Source: Promethearchaeota archaeon
GTDB taxonomy: Archaea; Asgardarchaeota; Lokiarchaeia; Sigyniarchaeales; SOKP01
Length of the DNA stretch: 20,308 nt
Direction: 5' to 3'
NCBI GenBank assembly: GCA_013375485.1
Contig: JABXKB010000043.1
Location: 1-20,308 of the forward strand
Each line of letters starts with the position of its first letter. The stretch's first letter is position 1. Below, in pieces: positions 3,741 to 10,930 of the stretch. The notes under the pieces were generated by a model. It ran no database searches. It had not been told where the DNA came from and was given only the letters and a program-made list of their open reading frames with translations. Made by a program: the position numbers and the translations under genes.

Positions 3741-3930
3741 ATTTTTTTGAATATATAAACTTATATATAAAAAGAATACTTAATTCTTCGCAATTTTCTA
3801 TTTATTTATATATATTAATATATATATCTCAATATTTAAATTTAAAGGTTTCTCGCTTTTTTTATATAATTCTTTAATTATCATAACATTTAAATATATG
3901 AGTATATAGAAATATATTGAGAATAAAAAA

Positions 3931-3960
3931 AAATATAAAGAAATATAAAGAAATATAATA
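3931..3960. repeat. Three tandem 10-bp units (AAATATAAAG x2, AAATATAATA), TATA-box-like, immediately upstream of the 3979 gene
   Basis: Read directly. Each unit contains an ATATAA core. A GGTG Shine-Dalgarno-like element follows at 3962-3965, ahead of the GTG start at 3979. Confidence 0.4.
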
Positions 3961-3978: not shown

Positions 3979-4482
3979 GTGACATTTGTCCCAATAATTG
4001 TACCTAATAGACAAAGAAATAGTTATAGATCCAGATCAGGGAGTGCATGTGCTGCTGTGGCTTTGGCTCTAGTTATTTTTGGATTATTGTCTTTTGTAAT
4101 GTTTGGTATGTTTGATCTAAATAGGTTTAGTTTTCCTCCAATGATCTTTTTGAGTGGATTTATTGTATTCATTATAATTATCATTGGCATTAGTGCAATT
4201 TCAATATCGATAAGTGAAACCTACAAGAAACCGAAAGAACAGCACTTGAAATCATATTATTCTCATTTTCAAAGCCAAACTCAACCTCAGAAACAAAGAC
4301 AACAATTTAATCCTTATATAATTCATAAGTCTATTCAAAATGAACCTGAAGAACATATCTATAAAGAAATTAAACGAGATATACCTGTAGTCTCAGATAT
4401 TAACTATTGTAGATTTTGCGGAGCAAAAGTTGATAGAGATGCAGTTTTTTGCTATCAATGTGGAATTAATATTTCCTCTTAA
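3979..4482 (+). CDS. Membrane protein with a C-terminal zinc-ribbon domain
   Basis: GTG start. Two hydrophobic helices (AAVALALVIFGLLSFVMFGMF and MIFLSGFIVFIIIIIGISAISISI) are followed by a Q-rich linker and a C-terminal CRFCGAKVDRDAVFCYQCG motif (CxxC-x10-CxxC zinc ribbon). Confidence 0.6.
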   Translation: MTFVPIIVPNRQRNSYRSRSGSACAAVALALVIFGLLSFVMFGMFDLNRFSFPPMIFLSGFIVFIIIIIGISAISISISETYKKPKEQHLKSYYSHFQSQTQPQKQRQQFNPYIIHKSIQNEPEEHIYKEIKRDIPVVSDINYCRFCGAKVDRDAVFCYQCGINISS

Positions 4483-4550
4483 AATGTTTTTATGATTTAA
4501 AAATTAAATTAAGTTTAACCCGTAAGAAAGGGAGAGTAAATTCAGATAAG

Positions 4551-5468
4551 ATGCAAACAAGGGCAATTAGAAAATTATCCACTATTCAATGGAAAAAAAA
4601 GGATAATATAGCTACTGTGTTAATCATTTTTGTTGGCTTAGGTTTAACATTTATAGGATCATTTTATAATGAGTTTTATAATATATTTTTTAGTACATGC
4701 GTAGGTTTATTTTTTGGAGGGATTATTTTATCAACAATTTCAACATTTCTTGCTCAAATGGAATCAAATATTACTGGAGCTGGTGAAATAGATGTTGATA
4801 TAGATGCTGATGTTGATATAGATGCTGATGTTGATATAGATGCTGATGTTGATGTCGATATAGATGCAGATGTTGATGTCGATATAGATGCAGATGTTGA
4901 TGTCGATATAGATGCAGATGTTGATGTCGATATAGATGCTGACGTTGATGTTGATATAGATACTGATGTCGATATAGATGCAGATGTTGATGTAGACAGT
5001 GATATTGATGTTGATACGGATCTTATTGCTACAGTCACTCCCGCTCCAATCATGCTTTTATTCTCTTCAGGATTTTTAATTTTTGGAATTTCAGGAATTT
5101 TATTATATCAATTAATTGAAGGAACACTGCGATTTATAATTCTTTTTATTGCACCCTCATTAGCATACTTAACTACGAAGATTATTAATTTTGCCTGGAA
5201 AATTATCGCAAAATCAAGATATTACAGGATCTCATCAACGCAAAATTTATTAGGGATTCAGGGAGAGGTATTATTGCGTGTTGATGAAAGGGGCGGTATT
5301 ATTAAGATACCATCTAATACACCATTGAGATTTGAAAGATTACATGTTAAACCAGTATTTGACTCATTTCATTTTGAGAGAGGGGAAAAAGTGTATATTT
5401 GTGATGTGAGAAATGGATATTTGTTGGTTGATAATAATAAAAAATCAATAAAAAAAAGGAGGTTATAA
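4551..5468 (+). CDS. NfeD-like membrane protein (YqiJ/YuaF-type) with an internal alternating Asp-X repeat
   Basis: Two N-terminal TM helices, then the 79-aa repeat, then two more TM helices. The C-terminal soluble domain LLGIQGEVLLRVDERGGIIKIPSN...ERGEKVYICDVRNGYLLVD fits the NfeD OB-fold pattern (G.G.v....G.v........G..V.v..v.g..l.V). The gene lies upstream of an SPFH/flotillin gene, as NfeD genes typically do. Confidence 0.6.
   Translation: MQTRAIRKLSTIQWKKKDNIATVLIIFVGLGLTFIGSFYNEFYNIFFSTCVGLFFGGIILSTISTFLAQMESNITGAGEIDVDIDADVDIDADVDIDADVDVDIDADVDVDIDADVDVDIDADVDVDIDADVDVDIDTDVDIDADVDVDSDIDVDTDLIATVTPAPIMLLFSSGFLIFGISGILLYQLIEGTLRFIILFIAPSLAYLTTKIINFAWKIIAKSRYYRISSTQNLLGIQGEVLLRVDERGGIIKIPSNTPLRFERLHVKPVFDSFHFERGEKVYICDVRNGYLLVDNNKKSIKKRRL
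4785..5021 (+). repeat. In-frame tandem repeat of 18-bp (GATGTTGATATAGATGCT = DVDIDA) and 24-bp (GATGTTGATGTCGATATAGATGCA = DVDVDIDA) units
   Basis: Read directly. Near-identical units repeat across 237 bp and encode a strictly alternating (Asp-Val/Ile/Ala/Thr/Ser) dipeptide run, EIDVDIDADVDIDA...DVDSDIDVDTD. Confidence 0.95.
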
Positions 5469-5472
5469 AGAT

Positions 5473-5706
5473 ATGAGTGTTGAAGAAGTGATAATAGATA
5501 AGACGATCGTTATTAAGAGTTTAAAACAAAATCATCAAAATACCATAAAAATAATAGAAGAAGATGAGCATGAAAAGAGAATCTTTACAAAAATCAAACG
5601 TAAATATAGACTAATGCTAGCATTCCTATTCTTTCTTTCAATTATACTTATATTCATGATACTTCCTATGGTTATAGGTGCAATTACTCAAGGTTTGTGG
5701 GGGTAA
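5473..5706 (+). CDS. Small tail-anchored membrane protein (hypothetical)
   Basis: ATG lies 4 nt after the NfeD-like stop and is preceded by AGGAGGT inside the upstream gene's end, suggesting translational coupling. There is a single C-terminal TM helix (LMLAFLFFLSIILIFMILPMVIGAI). Confidence 0.5.
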   Translation: MSVEEVIIDKTIVIKSLKQNHQNTIKIIEEDEHEKRIFTKIKRKYRLMLAFLFFLSIILIFMILPMVIGAITQGLWG

Positions 5707-5812
5707 ATCATGGTTTTTTCTAAATTTAATAATTTCTTTTAAAAAATCTACAAAAAAATGGAAAACAATATTATTTTATAAAAATTAAAGATAGGAGGTT
5801 TAGATACTAAAA

Positions 5813-6982
5813 GTGTTATTACAAGAATTAAATCCTTGGTTTGTAGGGCTCGGAGTAACAATAGGTATAATAATCTTTCTATTTGTAATTTTTCTTGCTG
5901 CTCGGTATAGGAAGTTTAAAACTAACCAATTCGTTATACATTTACGAAATGGTAAGGTGAAACATGCTGGATTAGGTGGAAGTTTATTTCTTCTTCCATT
6001 GATAGATGAATACATCGTCATTCCAACTACTAGTATTCAAACTTTAGTTGCAGCTCATGAACAGGTTGTTTCAAAAGAATATCAAAATATTGAGATCGAA
6101 GGATTACTGATTTGGAAGGTTGTTGATCCAGAAAAAGCATTTAGTGCAGTATCATGGAATATGAGAGATGATAACTATATTGAAAAAATATTAAAAGGCG
6201 CAACCGAAGCGATCATTCGTACTACATGTGCCAATATGCCTTTAGAGAAGATCATTAGAGAAAGAAGAGAGATAATTGATCATATTGAAAAAGATTTACA
6301 TGAATTAACAGCTGATTGGGGTATAATAATCGAATCTTTAGAAATAATTGAAGTTATTATTGGCGAACCTGAACTAAAAAAGAATATGGAAGCAACTAAG
6401 CAAGCAGAAGAATTCAGGAAAGCTAGAATTGCTAAAGCTGAAGCTGAAAGAGAGTCAAAAATGAGAGAATTAGAAGTAAAAAACGAGCTTGGTATTCAAG
6501 AACAACTCGTTGAAAGAGAGATTGAATTACGGCGAAAAGATAAAGAAATTGCCATCGCAGAACAAGAAAGAGAACGCAAGAAAATTGAAGCAGATGGAGA
6601 TCGACTGAAGAAGATAATCGAAGTTGATGCTGAAGCTCAACAAATAAAACGGAAATTAATTGCTCAAGCAGAAGGTGAAGCTGAGAATATAAAGCAACAA
6701 ATGCTCGCTCAAGCGGAAGGTTTTAAGAAACAAGTTGAAGCAATGAGTACTGCTGATGAAAGGTTCTTAGCAGTTCAATTAACGAATATTTTACCGGAGA
6801 TATTTAAGAATCTCAATCCAGACAAGATGTTTATAATGGGAGATGGAAATGAAGCTTTCAGTTCCCTTTCTCGAGCAATAATGCCATTCTTACAACTTTT
6901 ACCCGAATATTCAGATAAGATCAAGGATTTTTTTAACAACGGAGGAACCAAAAAACTAGAAGAAATATTAGTTAAAAAGTAG
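5813..6982 (+). CDS. SPFH/Band-7 family protein, flotillin-like (YqiK/FloT type)
   Basis: GTG start preceded by AGGAGGT. An N-terminal membrane helix is followed by an SPFH core (RYRKFKTNQFVIHLRNGK...LPLIDEYIVIPT...IEGLLIWKVVDPEKA). A long E/A/K-rich coiled coil then follows (AKAEAERESKMRELE...AQAEGEAENIKQQMLAQAEGFKKQ), and the flotillin-type tail ends the protein (LPEIFKNLNPDKMFIMGDG). Confidence 0.8.
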   Translation: MLLQELNPWFVGLGVTIGIIIFLFVIFLAARYRKFKTNQFVIHLRNGKVKHAGLGGSLFLLPLIDEYIVIPTTSIQTLVAAHEQVVSKEYQNIEIEGLLIWKVVDPEKAFSAVSWNMRDDNYIEKILKGATEAIIRTTCANMPLEKIIRERREIIDHIEKDLHELTADWGIIIESLEIIEVIIGEPELKKNMEATKQAEEFRKARIAKAEAERESKMRELEVKNELGIQEQLVEREIELRRKDKEIAIAEQERERKKIEADGDRLKKIIEVDAEAQQIKRKLIAQAEGEAENIKQQMLAQAEGFKKQVEAMSTADERFLAVQLTNILPEIFKNLNPDKMFIMGDGNEAFSSLSRAIMPFLQLLPEYSDKIKDFFNNGGTKKLEEILVKK

Positions 6983-7000
6983 TTTTATTTTTTTTTTTTT
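6983..7000 (+). terminator. Oligo-T tract (TTTTATTTTTTTTTTTTT) directly after the flotillin stop codon
   Basis: Read directly. Oligo-T runs are the established archaeal intrinsic termination signal. Confidence 0.55.
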
Positions 7001-7021
7001 AATAAATTATCAACATAAATT

Positions 7022-7225
7022 ATGGAAGGGATTAAAATGTCAAAAATTAAGATTGTAAAAGTTAGTGCTAAAGCCCAACAGATTAAAAAGAATTTTATTG
7101 CACAAATGGGAGGATCCAAGGAAAATTATGAGGCAATAATTAATGCTGAAGGAAGATATCTAGCAAGGTTAAAAGATATACTTCCAGAAAATTATTTTAG
7201 GTATCAAAATATCTACCGTTTTTAA
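7022..7225 (+). pseudogene. Degenerate duplicate of the flotillin C-terminal region (67-aa ORF; remnant or micro-protein)
   Basis: VSAKAQQIKKNFIAQMGGSKENYEAIINAEGRYLARLKDILPENYF aligns by eye with flotillin residues VDAEAQQIKRKLIAQAEGEAENIKQQ...AEGF...RFLAVQLTNILPEIF (about 6623-6815). Codon-level nucleotide similarity is also visible. Confidence 0.45.
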
Positions 7226-7293
7226 TATTTCACATCAATTTAATGAAATATCATTTTTATTATTTTAATAACATTTATGGGGTTTCTTAAGGT

Positions 7294-8196
7294 TTGATAA
7301 AAGACATAGAGAAAAAATTTGTTGAAGGGAATTTAAAATTTAAATGGAAAATTATGCAAGATTTAGAAAGCATTAAAATTCGGAAAAATTTTCCTAAATA
7401 TCCTGTTTTAATTCTTACTTGTATGGATCCGAGAATAAATATCAATGAAATTTTTCAACTTAATTCAGGAGATGTCTTTGTTTTAAGAAATGCAGGAAAT
7501 ATTTACACTATAGATGTCTTAAGGTCCATTTTACTTACGATTTTTAAATATAAAGTTAAATATGTAATAATATTAGGACATTTAGACTGTGGGATGCTAA
7601 AGATAAATCTAACAGAACTAAGACAAAAATTACCGTCTAAATTTCTGTCAAGTTTATCAAAAAATTATACAGACCTTCTTCCAAAATTAAGAGATTTTTT
7701 TAAACCAATCCTTGATGAAATACAAAATATAAAAGAACAAATCAAGAGTTTGGAAAAAATTAAGGATTTTTACCCCGAAATTGAAATCACTGGAATGTTA
7801 TATGATATTAAAACAGGTCTCGTTTTTGAGTATGAGAAATTCAAAGATTATAGAGATATCGAGGACTTTAAAACAAGTTATAAGGGAATAATTATTAATA
7901 AGAAACATCAATTCACAGAATTTTTAGGCAAAATTGAAGAAGAAAATGTTACAATTGATGATTCAAATGATCTTTCACAAGAAAAAGCATTAAATGAAGG
8001 TAAATCTTTTACTATTGCTGAAATAAAAGAAGAACATAAGAACATTTCTATCCTTGGACAAAAAGAGTCTAAGGAGTATGATAGAGAGATAATCCATATG
8101 ATTATTCCGAAAATTAAAGTTCCAAAAATCAAATTTCACGGAGTTAAAATATATATCCCTAAAAATTATAATAACAAAAAAGAAATTGTTAATTGA
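7294..8196 (+). CDS. Beta-class carbonic anhydrase with a ~110-aa K/E/I-rich C-terminal extension
   Basis: Zinc-ligand and catalytic motifs appear in the right order: TCMDPR (C-x-D-x-R), VLRNAGN, GHLDCGM (H-x-x-C). TTG start as listed; an in-frame ATG 60 nt downstream is an alternative start. Confidence 0.65.
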   Translation: MIKDIEKKFVEGNLKFKWKIMQDLESIKIRKNFPKYPVLILTCMDPRININEIFQLNSGDVFVLRNAGNIYTIDVLRSILLTIFKYKVKYVIILGHLDCGMLKINLTELRQKLPSKFLSSLSKNYTDLLPKLRDFFKPILDEIQNIKEQIKSLEKIKDFYPEIEITGMLYDIKTGLVFEYEKFKDYRDIEDFKTSYKGIIINKKHQFTEFLGKIEEENVTIDDSNDLSQEKALNEGKSFTIAEIKEEHKNISILGQKESKEYDREIIHMIIPKIKVPKIKFHGVKIYIPKNYNNKKEIVN

Positions 8197-9949: not shown

Positions 9950-10420
9950 TTAGTCTATTCCTGGTTTAAATTCAACTTGATTTAACTTATAATAGAACCT
10001 TGCATCTTTAGGTTTAAATCGAAGTATAGTATAATCAGGATCCTCCAATCCTTTTGGATAATACCTTATAGATGTATCTAACCAGAATTGTCGCTTAATA
10101 TCCATATCTTCAACTATTTCTGCTTCACCTCCAAACATTACTCCTTTAAAATCTTCGGTGTCGCAGAAATAAACAGAAACTTTAGGATTTTCCTTTATGT
10201 GGTCGATTTTAGATGAGCTAGTATTTGTTGAGAAATAAATTACATATTTATCTTCCAGTTTATCGTAGAATTTAGAAAATTCAGGATAGCGTTCCCTATA
10301 TCGTGTGTTAAGCAATGCTCTTGTTATAGGAAAGCCATCAGAGTCAATTGTTGACAAATAGGCTAAAAGGGAATTTTCTATTAATTCCTCACTTAATTTT
10401 ATTACTTCTTCTAATTCCAA
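9950..10420 (-). CDS. Pyridoxamine 5'-phosphate oxidase-like (FMN-binding split-barrel) family protein, paralog 1
   Basis: LAYLSTIDSDGFPITRAL...YFSTNTSSSKIDHIKENPKVSVYF...FKGVMFGGEAEIV fits the PNPOx-like / general-stress-protein-26 pattern. Same length (156 aa) as the adjacent gene and collinear with it. Confidence 0.6.
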   Translation of the reverse strand: MELEEVIKLSEELIENSLLAYLSTIDSDGFPITRALLNTRYRERYPEFSKFYDKLEDKYVIYFSTNTSSSKIDHIKENPKVSVYFCDTEDFKGVMFGGEAEIVEDMDIKRQFWLDTSIRYYPKGLEDPDYTILRFKPKDARFYYKLNQVEFKPGID

Positions 10421-10459
10421 ATTTTTTACATCTCCTTCTAATTTTAAAAAGCATGTAAA

Positions 10460-10930
10460 TTATTCTTTTCCCGGGTCAAAATGTACGTTTTGTAATTTAT
10501 AATAAAACCTTGCTTGATTAGGATTCAATCTGAGCAAGGCATAATCAGGATCTTCCAAACCATCTGGATAATACCTCTTCCACCAGTCTAACCATACTTT
10601 TCGTTTTATTTCCATGTCATCAATTTTTTCTACTTCTCCACCAAACATGACACCTTTAAAATTTTCGGGATCACAATAATACACACTAATTTTTGGATTG
10701 CTCTTAATATGTTCGATTTTTGATGATGCTGTATTTGTGATTATATATATTATATATTCATGTTCTTGATTAGCGAAAAATTCAGAAAATTCGGGAAATT
10801 GTTCCTTATTTCTTAGATTAAACATTGCTCTTGTTATAGGAAATCCTTCTGGGTCAATAGTCGTAAGATATGCCGCTTTTGAAGTCTCTATTAGTTCAAG
10901 ACTTAATTTTTTTACTTCATATAATTCCAT
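10460..10930 (-). CDS. Pyridoxamine 5'-phosphate oxidase-like (FMN-binding split-barrel) family protein, paralog 2
   Basis: 156 aa and alignable without gaps to 9950..10420, with well over half of positions identical by eye (e.g. GFPITRA, SSKI.HIK.NPK.SVY.CD, FKGVMFGGE, YYP.GLEDPDY, ARFYYKL). Confidence 0.6.
   Translation of the reverse strand: MELYEVKKLSLELIETSKAAYLTTIDPEGFPITRAMFNLRNKEQFPEFSEFFANQEHEYIIYIITNTASSKIEHIKSNPKISVYYCDPENFKGVMFGGEVEKIDDMEIKRKVWLDWWKRYYPDGLEDPDYALLRLNPNQARFYYKLQNVHFDPGKE

What the first reader, a model, noticed from the sequence alone, without database searches (positions are those of the whole stretch)
4785..5021. 79-residue strictly alternating Asp-X tract encoded by an 18/24-bp tandem DNA repeat inside an NfeD-like membrane protein
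Between TM helices 2 and 3 of the NfeD-like protein, every second residue over 79 aa is Asp. The intervening residues are almost all small or hydrophobic (V, I, A, rarely T or S). The tract is built from near-identical DVDIDA and DVDVDIDA units. If extended as a beta-strand, one face would be purely carboxylate and the other purely aliphatic, which could act as an amphipathic polyanionic surface for divalent-cation or membrane-interface binding. I know of no NfeD/YqiJ/YuaF protein described with such an insert. The high nucleotide identity of the units implies recent expansion and likely length polymorphism by slippage or recombination. It also creates a risk of assembly collapse or expansion.
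Basis: partly seen in the sequence, partly recalled or inferred. Interest (0 to 1): 0.7.

Follow-up and report, generated by a model that had tools for sequence, protein, structure and literature searches.

The report
Expanded Asp-X loop in Asgard NfeD
The 79-residue alternating Asp-X tract is real, but it is the normal, length-variable form of an acidic or histidine-rich loop found in a whole family of Asgard-archaeal membrane proteins that partner with flotillin-like scaffolds, and it probably binds cations at the inner membrane surface.

Summary
ORF 4551-5468 (305 aa) has acidic residues at every second position from residue 79 to 157 (E79 plus 39 Asp). The other positions are V/I/A/T/S. 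The tract is encoded by 18/24/48-bp tandem repeats.

The protein gives no Pfam NfeD or YqiJ hit. Its C-terminal domain nevertheless models as an NfeD OB fold (rmsd 1.4-1.7 Å to 3cp0 and 3wwv; top hit YbbJ, 8z5g). Its TM-hairpin-plus-OB region is homologous to bacterial YqiJ/DUF1449 (hhalign 98.6%).

The tract is not a private insert. All 73 related Asgard loci whose upstream region could be read carry a repeat tract at this position, either (D/E-X)n or (D-H-X)n. Bacterial YqiJ proteins carry a short version (6-36 aa; E. coli LDAHLDHYD). In loci free of gaps and truncation, the whole loop is 59-125 aa.

Length differs between near-identical relatives (75, 83 and 97 aa), and the DNA period differs by lineage, so slippage is ongoing. 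About a quarter of assemblies break or gap inside the tract.

Charge distribution places the tract in the cytoplasm, next to the OB domain and the adjacent SPFH protein. AlphaFold gives it no structure.

The best reading is a multivalent cation-binding amphipathic strip at the membrane surface. That function is inferred, not shown. I found no paper describing the feature. I class it as a new variant of a known kind, of moderate interest.

The parts
3979..4482 (+). Upstream neighbour: a 167-aa membrane protein with about 2 TM segments and a C-terminal zinc ribbon
   Evidence: Pfam Zn_Ribbon_1 E 3.2e-5, 24.0 bits, just under the 25-bit cut-off. A homologue lies upstream of the NfeD-like gene in 60 of 80 Asgard loci. 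Distant relatives P0076 and P0089 carry a zinc ribbon fused to the C-terminus of the OB domain.
4551..5468 (+). NfeD/YqiJ-like membrane protein, 305 aa: K/R-rich N-terminal tail, TM1-TM2 hairpin, Asp-X tract, TM3-TM4 hairpin, OB-fold domain
   Evidence: ORF. AlphaFold model. Foldseek top hits are YbbJ (8z5g), 3wwv and 3cp0. hhalign against bacterial YqiJ gives 98.6%, E 8.5e-16.
4557..4775 (+). TM1-TM2 helical hairpin (residues 3-36 and 40-75). It is preceded by a basic tail with 6 K/R in the first 17 residues.
   Evidence: TM1 is present in 29 of 54 complete homologues; the other 25 start at TM2.
4785..5021 (+). The alternating acidic-X tract (residues 79-157: E79 plus 39 Asp; X = V/I/A/T/S)
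   Evidence: pLDDT 30-40 in the AlphaFold model.
4842..4937 (+). Core of the most recent expansion: four 24-bp units encoding (A)DVDVDID. Three are identical and one differs by 1 nt.
5040..5219 (+). TM3-TM4 helical hairpin (residues 164-188 and 191-223). It is introduced by the invariant TPAP motif and followed by the basic segment WKIIAKSRYYR.
5259..5432 (+). C-terminal five-stranded beta domain with an NfeD-type OB fold (residues 237-294), pLDDT 84-92
   Evidence: 3cp0: TM-score 0.81, rmsd 1.4 Å over 62 columns. 3wwv: TM-score 0.76, rmsd 1.7 Å.
5473..5706 (+). Small 77-aa single-TM protein between the NfeD-like and SPFH genes. It is found only in the closest relatives.
   Evidence: tblastn detects it in 10 of 80 loci. 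No family assignment.
5813..6982 (+). SPFH/Band 7 protein, 389 aa, with an N-terminal TM segment and a long coiled-coil region. It is the presumed partner of the OB domain.
   Evidence: Pfam Band_7 E 7.8e-30. PDB relatives are stomatin, QmcA and flotillin-1. It is adjacent in 79 of 80 loci at 67-95% identity.
7294..8196 (+). Beta-class carbonic anhydrase with a C-terminal extension of about 120 aa. It is a conserved downstream neighbour.
   Evidence: Pfam Pro_CA E 3.4e-21. Present downstream in 63 of 80 loci.
4754..5053 (-). Antisense 99-aa ORF (ISTSTSASISTS...). It is a mechanical by-product of the repeat, not a gene.
   Evidence: It lies entirely within the repeat and its near flanks. No evidence for it was sought beyond that.

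Best explanation
The tract is the expanded, lineage-typical form of an acidic or histidine-rich loop that characterises YqiJ-type (DUF1449-like) NfeD proteins. These are the membrane partners of flotillin-like SPFH scaffolds.

Shown:
- The protein has a basic N-terminus, a TM1-TM2 hairpin, the tract, a TM3-TM4 hairpin and an NfeD OB domain.
- Its gene is followed, after a small 77-aa ORF (5473-5706), by an SPFH gene.
- Every related Asgard locus that could be read has a repeat tract at the same place, either (D/E-X)n or (D-H-X)n.
- The tract changes length in steps of whole repeat units between close relatives, with lineage-specific DNA periods.

Inferred:
- The charge distribution (basic N-terminus and basic segment after TM4, no K/R in the TM1-TM2 loop) puts the tract in the cytoplasm. 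That is the same side as the OB domain and the SPFH domain it binds, so it sits at the membrane surface at the foot of an SPFH basket.
- In the Asp-X form, the V/I face can lie on or in the lipid surface, or pair with other strands, while the Asp face points to the solvent. In the D-H-X form, a period-3 arrangement likewise gives one hydrophobic stripe plus ligand stripes.
- The property shared by both forms is a dense array of metal and proton ligands (Asp, His) with hydrophobic spacers and essentially no Lys or Arg. I therefore take the tract to be a multivalent cation-binding strip (Ca2+/Mg2+ for Asp-X; Zn2+/Ni2+/Fe2+ for D-H-X). It would fold or cross-link only when loaded, or when many copies are brought together by the SPFH oligomer.
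- Length is free to drift by replication slippage because function depends on the pattern, not on an exact number of units.
For: Identity and family:
- Foldseek of the AlphaFold model gives YbbJ from the QmcA-YbbJ complex, PH1510-C and the 3cp0 NfeD domain as the top three hits.
- hhalign of the Asgard C-terminal profile against YqiJ-type proteins gives 98.6% over 130 columns.
- The tail hits of the profile search pass the Pfam YqiJ_N cut-off.

The tract is a family trait:
-. There are 54 gap-free loops of 59-125 aa. The 32 Asp-X-type loops contain 0 K/R in 3247 residues, and their strictly alternating runs have a median of 56 and a maximum of 98.
- Short Asp-X runs sit after TM1 in bacterial YqiJ, for example 36 aa in P0240, and E. 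coli YqiJ has LDAHLDHYD.

The pattern is under selection:
- X positions are V 39%, I 25%, A 16%, with almost no G or P.
- The 180-degree hydrophobic moment is 3.46 against 0.32 in shuffles. D-H-X tracts peak at 120 degrees.

Slippage:
- Identical central units.
- Loops of 75, 83 and 97 aa where the flanks are at least 94% identical. The 75-aa allele was assembled identically from two samples.
- DNA periods of 18/24/48, 24/72, 36 and 51 in different lineages.

Topology:
- K+R counts are 6.3 in the 18 residues before TM1, 0.0 in the TM1-TM2 loop, 1.0 in the TM3-TM4 loop and 4.5 in the 20 residues after TM4.
- The NfeD OB domain is cytosolic and binds flotillin in S. aureus (PMC11222466).
- The QmcA-YbbJ cage faces the cytoplasm (PMC13086221).
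- Basket-like structures sit on the inner face of an Asgard plasma membrane (bioRxiv 10.1101/2025.11.06.686947).

Synteny: an SPFH gene is adjacent in 79 of 80 loci.

Against: - No experiment and no computation here shows cation binding.
- AlphaFold gives the tract pLDDT 30-40, both in the window protein and in a homologue with only a 26-residue tract. A plain disordered acidic loop therefore cannot be excluded.
- The two flavours have different periodicity (2 versus 3), so they cannot share one secondary structure.
- The topology is inferred from charge bias only.
- Whether the loop lies inside or outside the SPFH cage is unknown.
- The window protein itself does not reach any Pfam NfeD or YqiJ threshold.
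Confidence: 0.5

Rival explanations
1. The tract is an intrinsically disordered polyanionic spacer or 'entropic bristle'. It only keeps the two TM hairpins apart, or repels anionic lipids, nucleic acids or proteins from the microdomain, and has no specific ligand.
For: AlphaFold pLDDT is 30-40 for both long and short tracts. Length is very tolerant, with loops of 59-125 aa. Sequence turns over rapidly.
Against: Disordered acidic linkers are normally rich in G, S, P, E, N and Q. Here about 70% of spacer residues are the beta-branched V, I or T. G is 1% and P 0.1%. Strict alternation persists over up to 98 residues and across 32 species. Replacement by D-H-X in sister clades points to ligand chemistry rather than charge alone.
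Confidence: 0.2
2. The tract is a proton buffer or proton-collecting antenna working with the co-encoded beta-carbonic anhydrase. Clustered Asp (with raised pKa) and His would take up or deliver the H+ produced by CO2 hydration at the membrane.
For: A beta-carbonic anhydrase lies downstream in 63 of 80 loci. Asp and His, the two residues that define the two tract flavours, are the two side chains that titrate near physiological pH (my own knowledge). The tract and the anhydrase are both predicted to be cytoplasmic.
Against: Bacterial YqiJ-YqiK operons carry the short motif without a carbonic anhydrase neighbour; the E. coli locus is an example. Seventeen of 80 Asgard loci show no anhydrase within the fetched flank, though some of those are cut short. 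Nothing links the proteins physically.
Confidence: 0.1
3. The tract folds into a regular beta-solenoid or stacked beta-hairpin rod with a V/I core and an all-Asp surface, bactofilin-like. It would act as a rigid structural element or a polymerising module.
For: There is a weak Pfam Bactofilin match on the tract (E 0.0046, 17.6 bits; P0057 E 0.19). Small residues (A/S/T) recur every 6 or 8 positions and could mark turns. Many relatives have G-containing breaks such as YDIGAE and EAGVD.
Against: The match is below the 27.9-bit cut-off and is explained by V/I alternation. AlphaFold predicts no such fold. An uncompensated all-Asp surface would be unstable without counter-ions. The D-H-X flavour does not fit the same geometry.
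Confidence: 0.07
4. The loop is exported and decorates the outer face of the membrane as a cation-binding or surface-layer-anchoring element.
For: Acidic loops can be translocated electrophoretically (my own knowledge). An N-I-T sequon sits just before the tract in many members.
Against: An external loop would force the K/R-rich segment after TM4 and the OB domain to the outside, away from the SPFH domain they bind. The charge bias is 6.3 / 0 / 1.0 / 4.5. The sequon is not conserved; MESQSVG and MEASIGG occur instead. Members with three TM segments have an acidic, short N-terminus, which fits an outside N-terminus with the loop inside.
Confidence: 0.05
5. The tract in this window is an assembly artefact, or a neutral microsatellite with no function.
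For: Repeats of this kind break assemblies. Of 80 loci, 9 end within or just after the tract and 11 have N runs in it, and one MAG has a frameshift. The exact 305-aa protein is not on record elsewhere.
Against: The tract is in frame and flanked by conserved anchors. Its length is inside the family range. It is present in all related loci that could be read. One allele was recovered identically from two independent metagenomes. Alternation and the absence of K/R are maintained despite turnover, which neutral drift would not do.
Confidence: 0.03

Closest known systems
YqiJ / DUF1449 (Pfam YqiJ_N PF21001 plus YqiJ_OB PF07290), the inner-membrane partner of the flotillin YqiK in E. coli
   Same: - The order of elements is the same: TM, acidic or His-containing loop, TM hairpin, C-terminal OB domain.
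- The gene lies directly upstream of a flotillin-like SPFH gene.
- Profile-profile homology covers the TM hairpin and OB domain (98.6%).
- A D-rich motif sits at the same position: LDAHLDHYD in E. coli, and DADADVDADVDADADAD or 36-aa Asp-X runs in other bacteria.
   Different: - The window protein does not reach the Pfam thresholds.
- It has an extra N-terminal TM helix and a basic tail.
- The loop is expanded from about 10-36 aa to 59-125 aa and is encoded by active tandem repeats.
- A second, D-H-X flavour exists.
- The distribution is Asgard-wide, with conserved zinc-ribbon and carbonic-anhydrase neighbours.
Short NfeD proteins (Pfam NfeD PF01957), e.g. E. coli YbbJ (8z5g), P. horikoshii PH1510-C (3wwv), B. 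subtilis YuaF
   Same: Membrane-anchored OB-fold domain that binds an operon-encoded SPFH protein. The structural match is rmsd 1.4-1.7 Å over about 62 residues.
   Different: There is no sequence-level Pfam match for the window protein. For two of these, YbbJ and YuaF, my recollection is that no D-rich repeat loop has been reported; I did not check their sequences here.
(HX)n histidine-rich cytoplasmic loops of ZIP and CDF/ZnT metal transporters
   Same: Ligand residues alternate with spacers in a cytoplasmic loop between TM helices, the loop is length-variable, and it is accepted as a metal-binding or metal-sensing element (my own knowledge). Distant relatives of the window protein even carry HDHDHD and GHGHG runs (P0087, P0148).
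   Different: The protein fold is different and there is no transporter core. The ligand here is Asp, or Asp plus His, and the tract is several times longer.
Designed amphiphilic beta-sheet peptides Pro-Asp-(Phe-Asp)n-Pro, and the classical (Asp-Y)n template idea for acidic biomineralisation proteins
   Same: Asp strictly alternates with a hydrophobic or small residue, giving a strand with one carboxylate face. The synthetic peptides assemble as beta-sheets (PMC11579972). The (Asp-Y)n proposal of Weiner and Hood (1975) is cited from my own knowledge.
   Different: Those are extracellular matrix proteins or synthetic peptides. The tract here is an intracellular loop of a membrane protein, and no mineral or calcium link has been shown.

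Membership tests
NfeD (PF01957) superfamily | Sequence match to the NfeD C-terminal domain HMM above the gathering score (29.1 bits) | tested here: not met
   The window protein gives no hit even at E <= 10. Homologues reach only 11.9-19.9 bits.
NfeD (PF01957) superfamily | C-terminal five-stranded OB-fold beta-barrel like the solved NfeD domains | tested here: met
   The AlphaFold domain 237-294 has pLDDT 84-92. Foldseek gives 3cp0 at TM-score 0.81 and rmsd 1.4 Å, 3wwv at TM-score 0.76 and rmsd 1.7 Å, and 8z5g YbbJ as the top hit.
NfeD (PF01957) superfamily | Membrane anchor N-terminal to the OB domain, and a gene next to an SPFH/Band 7 gene | tested here: met
   Four predicted TM helices. 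A Band_7 gene starts 345 nt downstream, after the small 77-aa ORF. An SPFH gene is adjacent in 79 of 80 related loci.
NfeD (PF01957) superfamily | Physical binding of the OB domain to the SPFH partner | not testable with these tools
   Needs co-purification or multimer modelling. Shown for S. aureus NfeD-FloA (PMC11222466) and E. coli YbbJ-QmcA (PDB 8z5g).
YqiJ / DUF1449 (PF21001 + PF07290) | Pfam YqiJ_N and YqiJ_OB hits above the gathering scores | tested here: not met
   No hit for the window protein. E. coli YqiJ scores 58.2 and 54.0 bits as a positive control.
YqiJ / DUF1449 (PF21001 + PF07290) | Detectable homology to YqiJ-type proteins at profile level | tested here: met
   hhalign of A1 against A3 gives probability 98.6%, E 8.5e-16 over 130 columns. 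The profile search reaches P0144, P0149 and P0150, which pass the YqiJ_N cut-off.
YqiJ / DUF1449 (PF21001 + PF07290) | Architecture: TM, D-rich loop, TM hairpin, OB domain | tested here: met
   The window protein adds one N-terminal TM helix, which is present in 29 of 54 complete family members.
YqiJ / DUF1449 (PF21001 + PF07290) | The partner is a flotillin-type (YqiK/FloT) SPFH protein | tested here: inconclusive
   Band_7 is strong (E 7.8e-30), but the Flot domain is sub-threshold (E 0.0084) and NCBIfam FloT scores 39.8 bits against a 700-bit cut-off. PDB relatives include both stomatin and flotillin-1.
Bactofilin (PF04519) | HMM match above 27.9 bits; beta-helical DUF583 core | tested here: not met
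   17.6 bits, on the repeat only. AlphaFold predicts no beta-helix.
MSCRAMM Ser-Asp-repeat adhesins (SdrC/SdrD/ClfA/ClfB) | Full-length equivalog score; SD dipeptide repeat, A domain, LPXTG anchor | tested here: not met
   36-41 bits against cut-offs of 999-2500, aligned only to the SD-repeat region. The window protein has no Ser-Asp repeat, no signal peptide or adhesin domain and no sorting motif, by direct reading.
RTX / beta-roll calcium-binding repeats | Gly-rich nonapeptide GGXGXDXUX in tandem | tested here: not met
   The tract contains no Gly at all.

The most novel reading that the evidence does not exclude
The D-rich and D/H-rich amphipathic repeat loops of YqiJ-type NfeD proteins assemble, one per SPFH subunit, into a cation-loaded polyanionic sheet. 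This sheet would line the cytoplasmic leaflet under the flotillin-like basket. Together with the co-encoded beta-carbonic anhydrase and zinc-ribbon membrane protein, it would form a dedicated cation / proton / (bi)carbonate handling microcompartment in Asgard archaea, possibly extending to storage or nucleation of an intracellular carbonate or metal phase. If true, this would give the long-enigmatic NfeD-flotillin pair a concrete chemical function.
Probability: 0.07. Interest if true: 0.85.

Novelty: new variant of a known kind. Interest (0 to 1): 0.5.

Why it matters
NfeD and YqiJ proteins are the near-universal operon partners of prokaryotic SPFH/flotillin scaffolds, and their function is still unknown.

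A dense Asp or Asp/His repeat loop turns out to be a family-wide trait. It is conserved in pattern but free in length, and it is hugely expanded in Asgard archaea. That gives a concrete, testable handle: cation binding at the membrane under the basket. It bears on a system for which cryo-ET has just shown baskets on the inner face of an Asgard plasma membrane.

There is also a practical point. The tract fragments MAG assemblies, causes frameshifts and truncated gene calls, and hides the protein from Pfam. This gene is therefore systematically mis-annotated in Asgard genomes.

Tried and rejected
1. Pfam and NCBIfam scans of the whole protein and of its two halves gave no NfeD or YqiJ hit. They returned only sub-threshold Bactofilin and low-complexity matches to MSCRAMM SD repeats. 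I rejected both as family assignments.

2. An exact look-up of the 305-aa protein in public assemblies found nothing on record.

3. Sequence searches of the PDB with E. coli YqiJ, with the Asgard C-terminal profile and with the tract itself gave no meaningful hits.

4. Two AlphaFold runs were made, one on the window protein and one on a homologue with a 26-residue tract. Neither gave the tract a confident structure, so the beta-strand or solenoid idea could be neither supported nor excluded.

5. Searching 5.8 billion proteins with the tract alone gave 13 weak hits. These were fragments of this family, YqiJ-like N-termini, or short ORFs that look like translated simple repeats. No other protein family with such a tract emerged.

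6. A PADLOC scan of the five cluster proteins gave no hit, so there is no sign of a defence system.

7. Literature searches covered NfeD, YqiJ, DUF1449 and alternating Asp. No description of the tract was found. The QmcA-YbbJ structure paper is not held in the library.

8. The afdb50 fold library was not available.

9. A rough neighbour-joining tree of the C-terminal domains shows that the two flavours largely follow clades, with a few switches. Some truncated loci were misclassified, so I give no exact number of switches.
Full report
**1. The observation**

The window is AT-rich (30.5% G+C). ORF 4551-5468 on the + strand encodes 305 aa. Residues 79-157 (nt 4785-5021) are E-I-(D-X)38-D. That is 40 acidic residues (1 Glu, 39 Asp) at every second position. 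The spacers are V17, I11, A8, T2 and S1, with no Lys, Arg, Gly or Pro.

The DNA is a tandem array with periods of 18, 24 and 48. Three consecutive 24-bp units (4866-4937) are identical, a fourth differs by one base, and two 18-bp units are identical.

Perfect alternation at this composition has a probability of 1.9e-23. The beta-type hydrophobic moment (180 degrees) is 3.46, against a mean of 0.32 in shuffles. The antisense 99-aa ORF at 4754-5053 is a mirror image of the repeat.

**2. What the protein is**

Pfam gives no NfeD or YqiJ match for the protein or for either half. It returns only a sub-threshold Bactofilin hit on the repeat. NCBIfam returns only low-complexity matches to staphylococcal SD-repeat adhesins. 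So 'NfeD-like' had to be tested in other ways.

- An AlphaFold model built with 34 homologues shows four TM helices (3-36, 40-75, 164-188, 191-223). It also shows a confident five-stranded beta domain at 237-294, pLDDT 84-92.
- Foldseek against the PDB puts three NfeD structures on top. These are YbbJ in the E. coli QmcA-YbbJ cage (8z5g), PH1510-C (3wwv; TM-score 0.76, rmsd 1.7 Å) and 3cp0 (TM-score 0.81, rmsd 1.4 Å).
- A profile of the C-terminal 146 residues was searched against 1.84 billion representative proteins. It finds only 85 relatives. The tail of that list consists of bacterial proteins that pass the Pfam YqiJ_N threshold.
- hhalign of the Asgard profile against a YqiJ alignment that includes E. 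coli YqiJ gives 98.6% probability (E 8.5e-16) over 130 columns, covering the TM hairpin and OB domain.

The protein is therefore a divergent YqiJ-type member of the NfeD superfamily. Its gene is followed, after a 77-aa single-TM ORF, by a Band 7/SPFH gene (E 7.8e-30), as expected for this superfamily (PMC2636767).

**3. The tract is a family trait, not an insert**

A search with the C-terminal 148 aa found 68 homologues; every one that carries an organism name is an Asgard archaeon. A scan of species-representative genomes gave 80 further loci, almost all labelled Promethearchaeota.

A repeat tract lies between the conserved ...LAQMES... end of TM2 and the invariant TPAP start of TM3 in every locus whose upstream region could be read: 73 of 80, because 7 did not parse. 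Two flavours exist:
- (D/E-X)n, as in the window.
- (D-H-X)n, for example HVDHIDHVDHADLG.

Among 54 loops free of gaps and truncation:
- The 32 Asp-X-type loops are 67-124 aa long (median 107; the window's loop is 93). They are 42% acidic and contain no K/R in 3247 residues. Their strictly alternating runs have a median of 56 and a maximum of 98; the window's run is 80.
- The 22 D-H-X-type loops are 59-125 aa long and are 29% D/E and 23% H.

More distant relatives carry GHDxS, HDHDHD, DISADHDISH, GDADVSADVG and even GHGHG repeats at the same place. Bacterial YqiJ_N proteins have a short version directly after their first TM helix. Examples are DADADVDADVDADADAD and a 36-aa Asp-X run in P0240; E. 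coli YqiJ has LDAHLDHYD.

Searching with the tract alone recovered only fragments of this family, YqiJ-like N-termini and apparently spurious repeat ORFs. The 'already annotated' part is not: none of the papers I could search mention the tract.

**4. Dynamics**

Relatives whose C-terminal domain is at least 94% identical to the window's have loops of 75 aa (L087 and L088), 83 aa (window) and 97 aa (L015). The 75-aa allele came from two independent JGI samples and is identical in both. Relatives at 89% identity have loops of 73 and 101 aa.

The dominant DNA period differs by lineage: 18/24/48 in the window, 24/72 in L015, 36 in L007 and 51 in the D-H-X locus L043. This is the signature of continuing, independent slippage or unequal exchange.

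At the same time, the pattern is maintained: alternation, beta-branched hydrophobic spacers (V 39%, I 25%, A 16%) and no basic residues. That argues for selection on the pattern.

The tract is also an assembly hazard.
- In 9 of 80 loci the contig ends within or just after the tract, and 11 have runs of about 100 N inside it.
- One MAG (L090) has an extra T that creates a TGA and splits the gene in two.
- Gene callers often start at the internal Met of MESNITG, although the ORF continues about 70 aa upstream with two TM helices.

**5. Where the tract sits**

Across the 54 complete proteins the K+R counts are as follows:

| Segment | Mean K+R |
|---|---|
| 18 residues before TM1 | 6.3 |
| TM1-TM2 loop | 0.0 |
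| TM3-TM4 loop | 1.0 |
| 20 residues after TM4 | 4.5 |

By the positive-inside rule, the N-terminus, the tract and the OB domain are cytoplasmic. Members that lack TM1 (25 of 54) start with a short acidic N-terminus, which is consistent with the same orientation. The SPFH neighbour has an N-terminal TM segment followed by RYRKFK, so its SPFH domain is cytoplasmic too.

This agrees with published data:
- The OB domain is cytosolic and binds flotillin in S. aureus (PMC11222466).
- The QmcA-YbbJ cage of 26 heterodimers protrudes into the cytoplasm (PMC13086221).
- Basket-like structures sit on the inner face of an Asgard plasma membrane (bioRxiv 10.1101/2025.11.06.686947).

Whether the loop is inside or outside the basket wall is unknown.

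**6. How it may work**

AlphaFold assigns the tract pLDDT 30-40, and likewise for a homologue with only a 26-residue tract. There is therefore no predicted autonomous fold.

The sequence is nevertheless not that of an ordinary disordered linker. The Asp-X flavour is a maximal amphipathic beta pattern. The D-H-X flavour peaks at 120 degrees, which gives three stripes: hydrophobic, Asp and His. Both flavours share one hydrophobic face, a dense array of classical metal and proton ligands, and essentially no basic residues.

My preferred reading is a multivalent cation-binding strip lying at the cytoplasmic membrane surface. It would order or cross-link only when loaded, or when many copies are gathered by the SPFH oligomer. 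I put this at about 0.5, with the identity and dynamics parts far more certain than the function.

Rivals are a purely entropic acidic spacer, a proton buffer or antenna linked to the conserved beta-carbonic anhydrase neighbour, a beta-solenoid rod, an exported loop, and an artefact. Each is weighed in the rival list.

**7. Context**

The cluster is zinc-ribbon membrane protein, then NfeD-like, then SPFH, then beta-carbonic anhydrase. It is conserved across Asgard lineages: SPFH in 79 of 80 loci, carbonic anhydrase in 63 of 80, zinc-ribbon protein in 60 of 80.

The SPFH protein is far more conserved (67-95% identity to the window's) than the NfeD-like C-terminus (48-95%). Two distant relatives have a zinc ribbon fused to the OB domain (P0076 and P0089). 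That gene fusion ties the upstream zinc-ribbon protein to the system. No defence-system signature was found.

**8. Verdict**

The feature is real and strikingly regular, but it is typical for its family. It is best described as an Asgard-expanded variant of the D/H-rich loop of YqiJ-type NfeD proteins.

As far as I could find, the family-wide nature of the loop, its two chemistries and its rapid length evolution have not been described. They offer a testable lead on the unknown function of NfeD-flotillin pairs. Interest is moderate (0.5). Novelty: a new variant of a known kind.

Noticed in passing
window 3979-8196; loci L007-L086: The four-gene cluster (zinc-ribbon membrane protein, NfeD-like, SPFH, beta-carbonic anhydrase) is conserved across Asgard lineages: SPFH adjacent in 79 of 80 loci, carbonic anhydrase in 63 of 80, zinc-ribbon protein in 60 of 80. 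The SPFH protein is much more conserved (67-95% identity) than its NfeD-like partner (48-95%).
   Followed up: partly
P0076 and P0089; compare window 3979-4482: Two distant relatives have a C-terminal zinc ribbon (CPNCG...C.YCG) fused directly to the NfeD OB domain. This gene fusion links the separate upstream zinc-ribbon protein to the same system.
   Followed up: no
L090 2420-2450 (GCA_054388575.1, JBSWNT010000476.1): A single extra T inside the Asp-X repeat creates an in-frame TGA and splits the gene into two annotated proteins (P0284 and P0015). This is either a sequencing or assembly error or a real frameshift in the slippery tract.
   Followed up: partly
L020, L035, L036, L040, L042, L045, L048, L049, L072, L078, L080: Runs of about 100 N fall exactly inside the repeat tract in 11 of 80 species-representative genomes. 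Nine further loci are cut by a contig end within or just after the tract. The tool notes that some stretches of this collection are masked, so not all of the N runs need be scaffold gaps.
   Followed up: partly
L002 5782-6000; L005 1173-1382: Gene callers start homologues at the internal Met of MESNITG or at a later Met. The ORFs continue about 70 aa upstream and encode the basic tail and two TM helices, so database entries are N-terminally truncated.
   Followed up: yes
L043 3720-3982 and other Thor/Odin-type loci: There is a second tract flavour, (D-H-X)n, with the unit HIDHVDHIDHADLG encoded by a 51-bp repeat at 94% identity. Its hydrophobic periodicity is 3, not 2. The flavours largely follow clades, with a few switches on a rough neighbour-joining tree.
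   Followed up: partly
L010-L014, L017-L019, L022-L024, L054, L061, L065 and others: Many Asp-X tracts contain a non-repeat core, roughly DYD[IM]GAE[IV]E[LV]DAVE...EAGVDVDSD. The window and its closest relatives lack it. The window also lacks an 8-residue LDAEAEID segment that is present near the C-terminal end of the tract in L087 and L088.
   Followed up: no
window 5473-5706: A 77-aa single-TM ORF lies between the NfeD-like and SPFH genes. It is detectable in only 10 of 80 loci (the closest relatives) and has no family assignment.
   Followed up: partly
window 3799-3958: AT-rich tandem repeats, including TATAAAGAAA x5.5 at 3903-3958, lie in the intergenic region just upstream of the zinc-ribbon gene. 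They may be promoter-related.
   Followed up: no
P0120, P0129, P0146: Giant proteins of 2608-4973 aa match the OB-domain part of the profile in up to 8 separate stretches, which suggests tandem arrays of NfeD-like OB domains.
   Followed up: no
window 9950-10930 (- strand): Two tandem PNPOx-like paralogues sit next to DUF3795, flavin reductase, MarR and alpha/beta-hydrolase genes. The same arrangement occurs beside the cluster in the Thorarchaeota locus L005, so synteny extends beyond the four-gene cluster.
   Followed up: no
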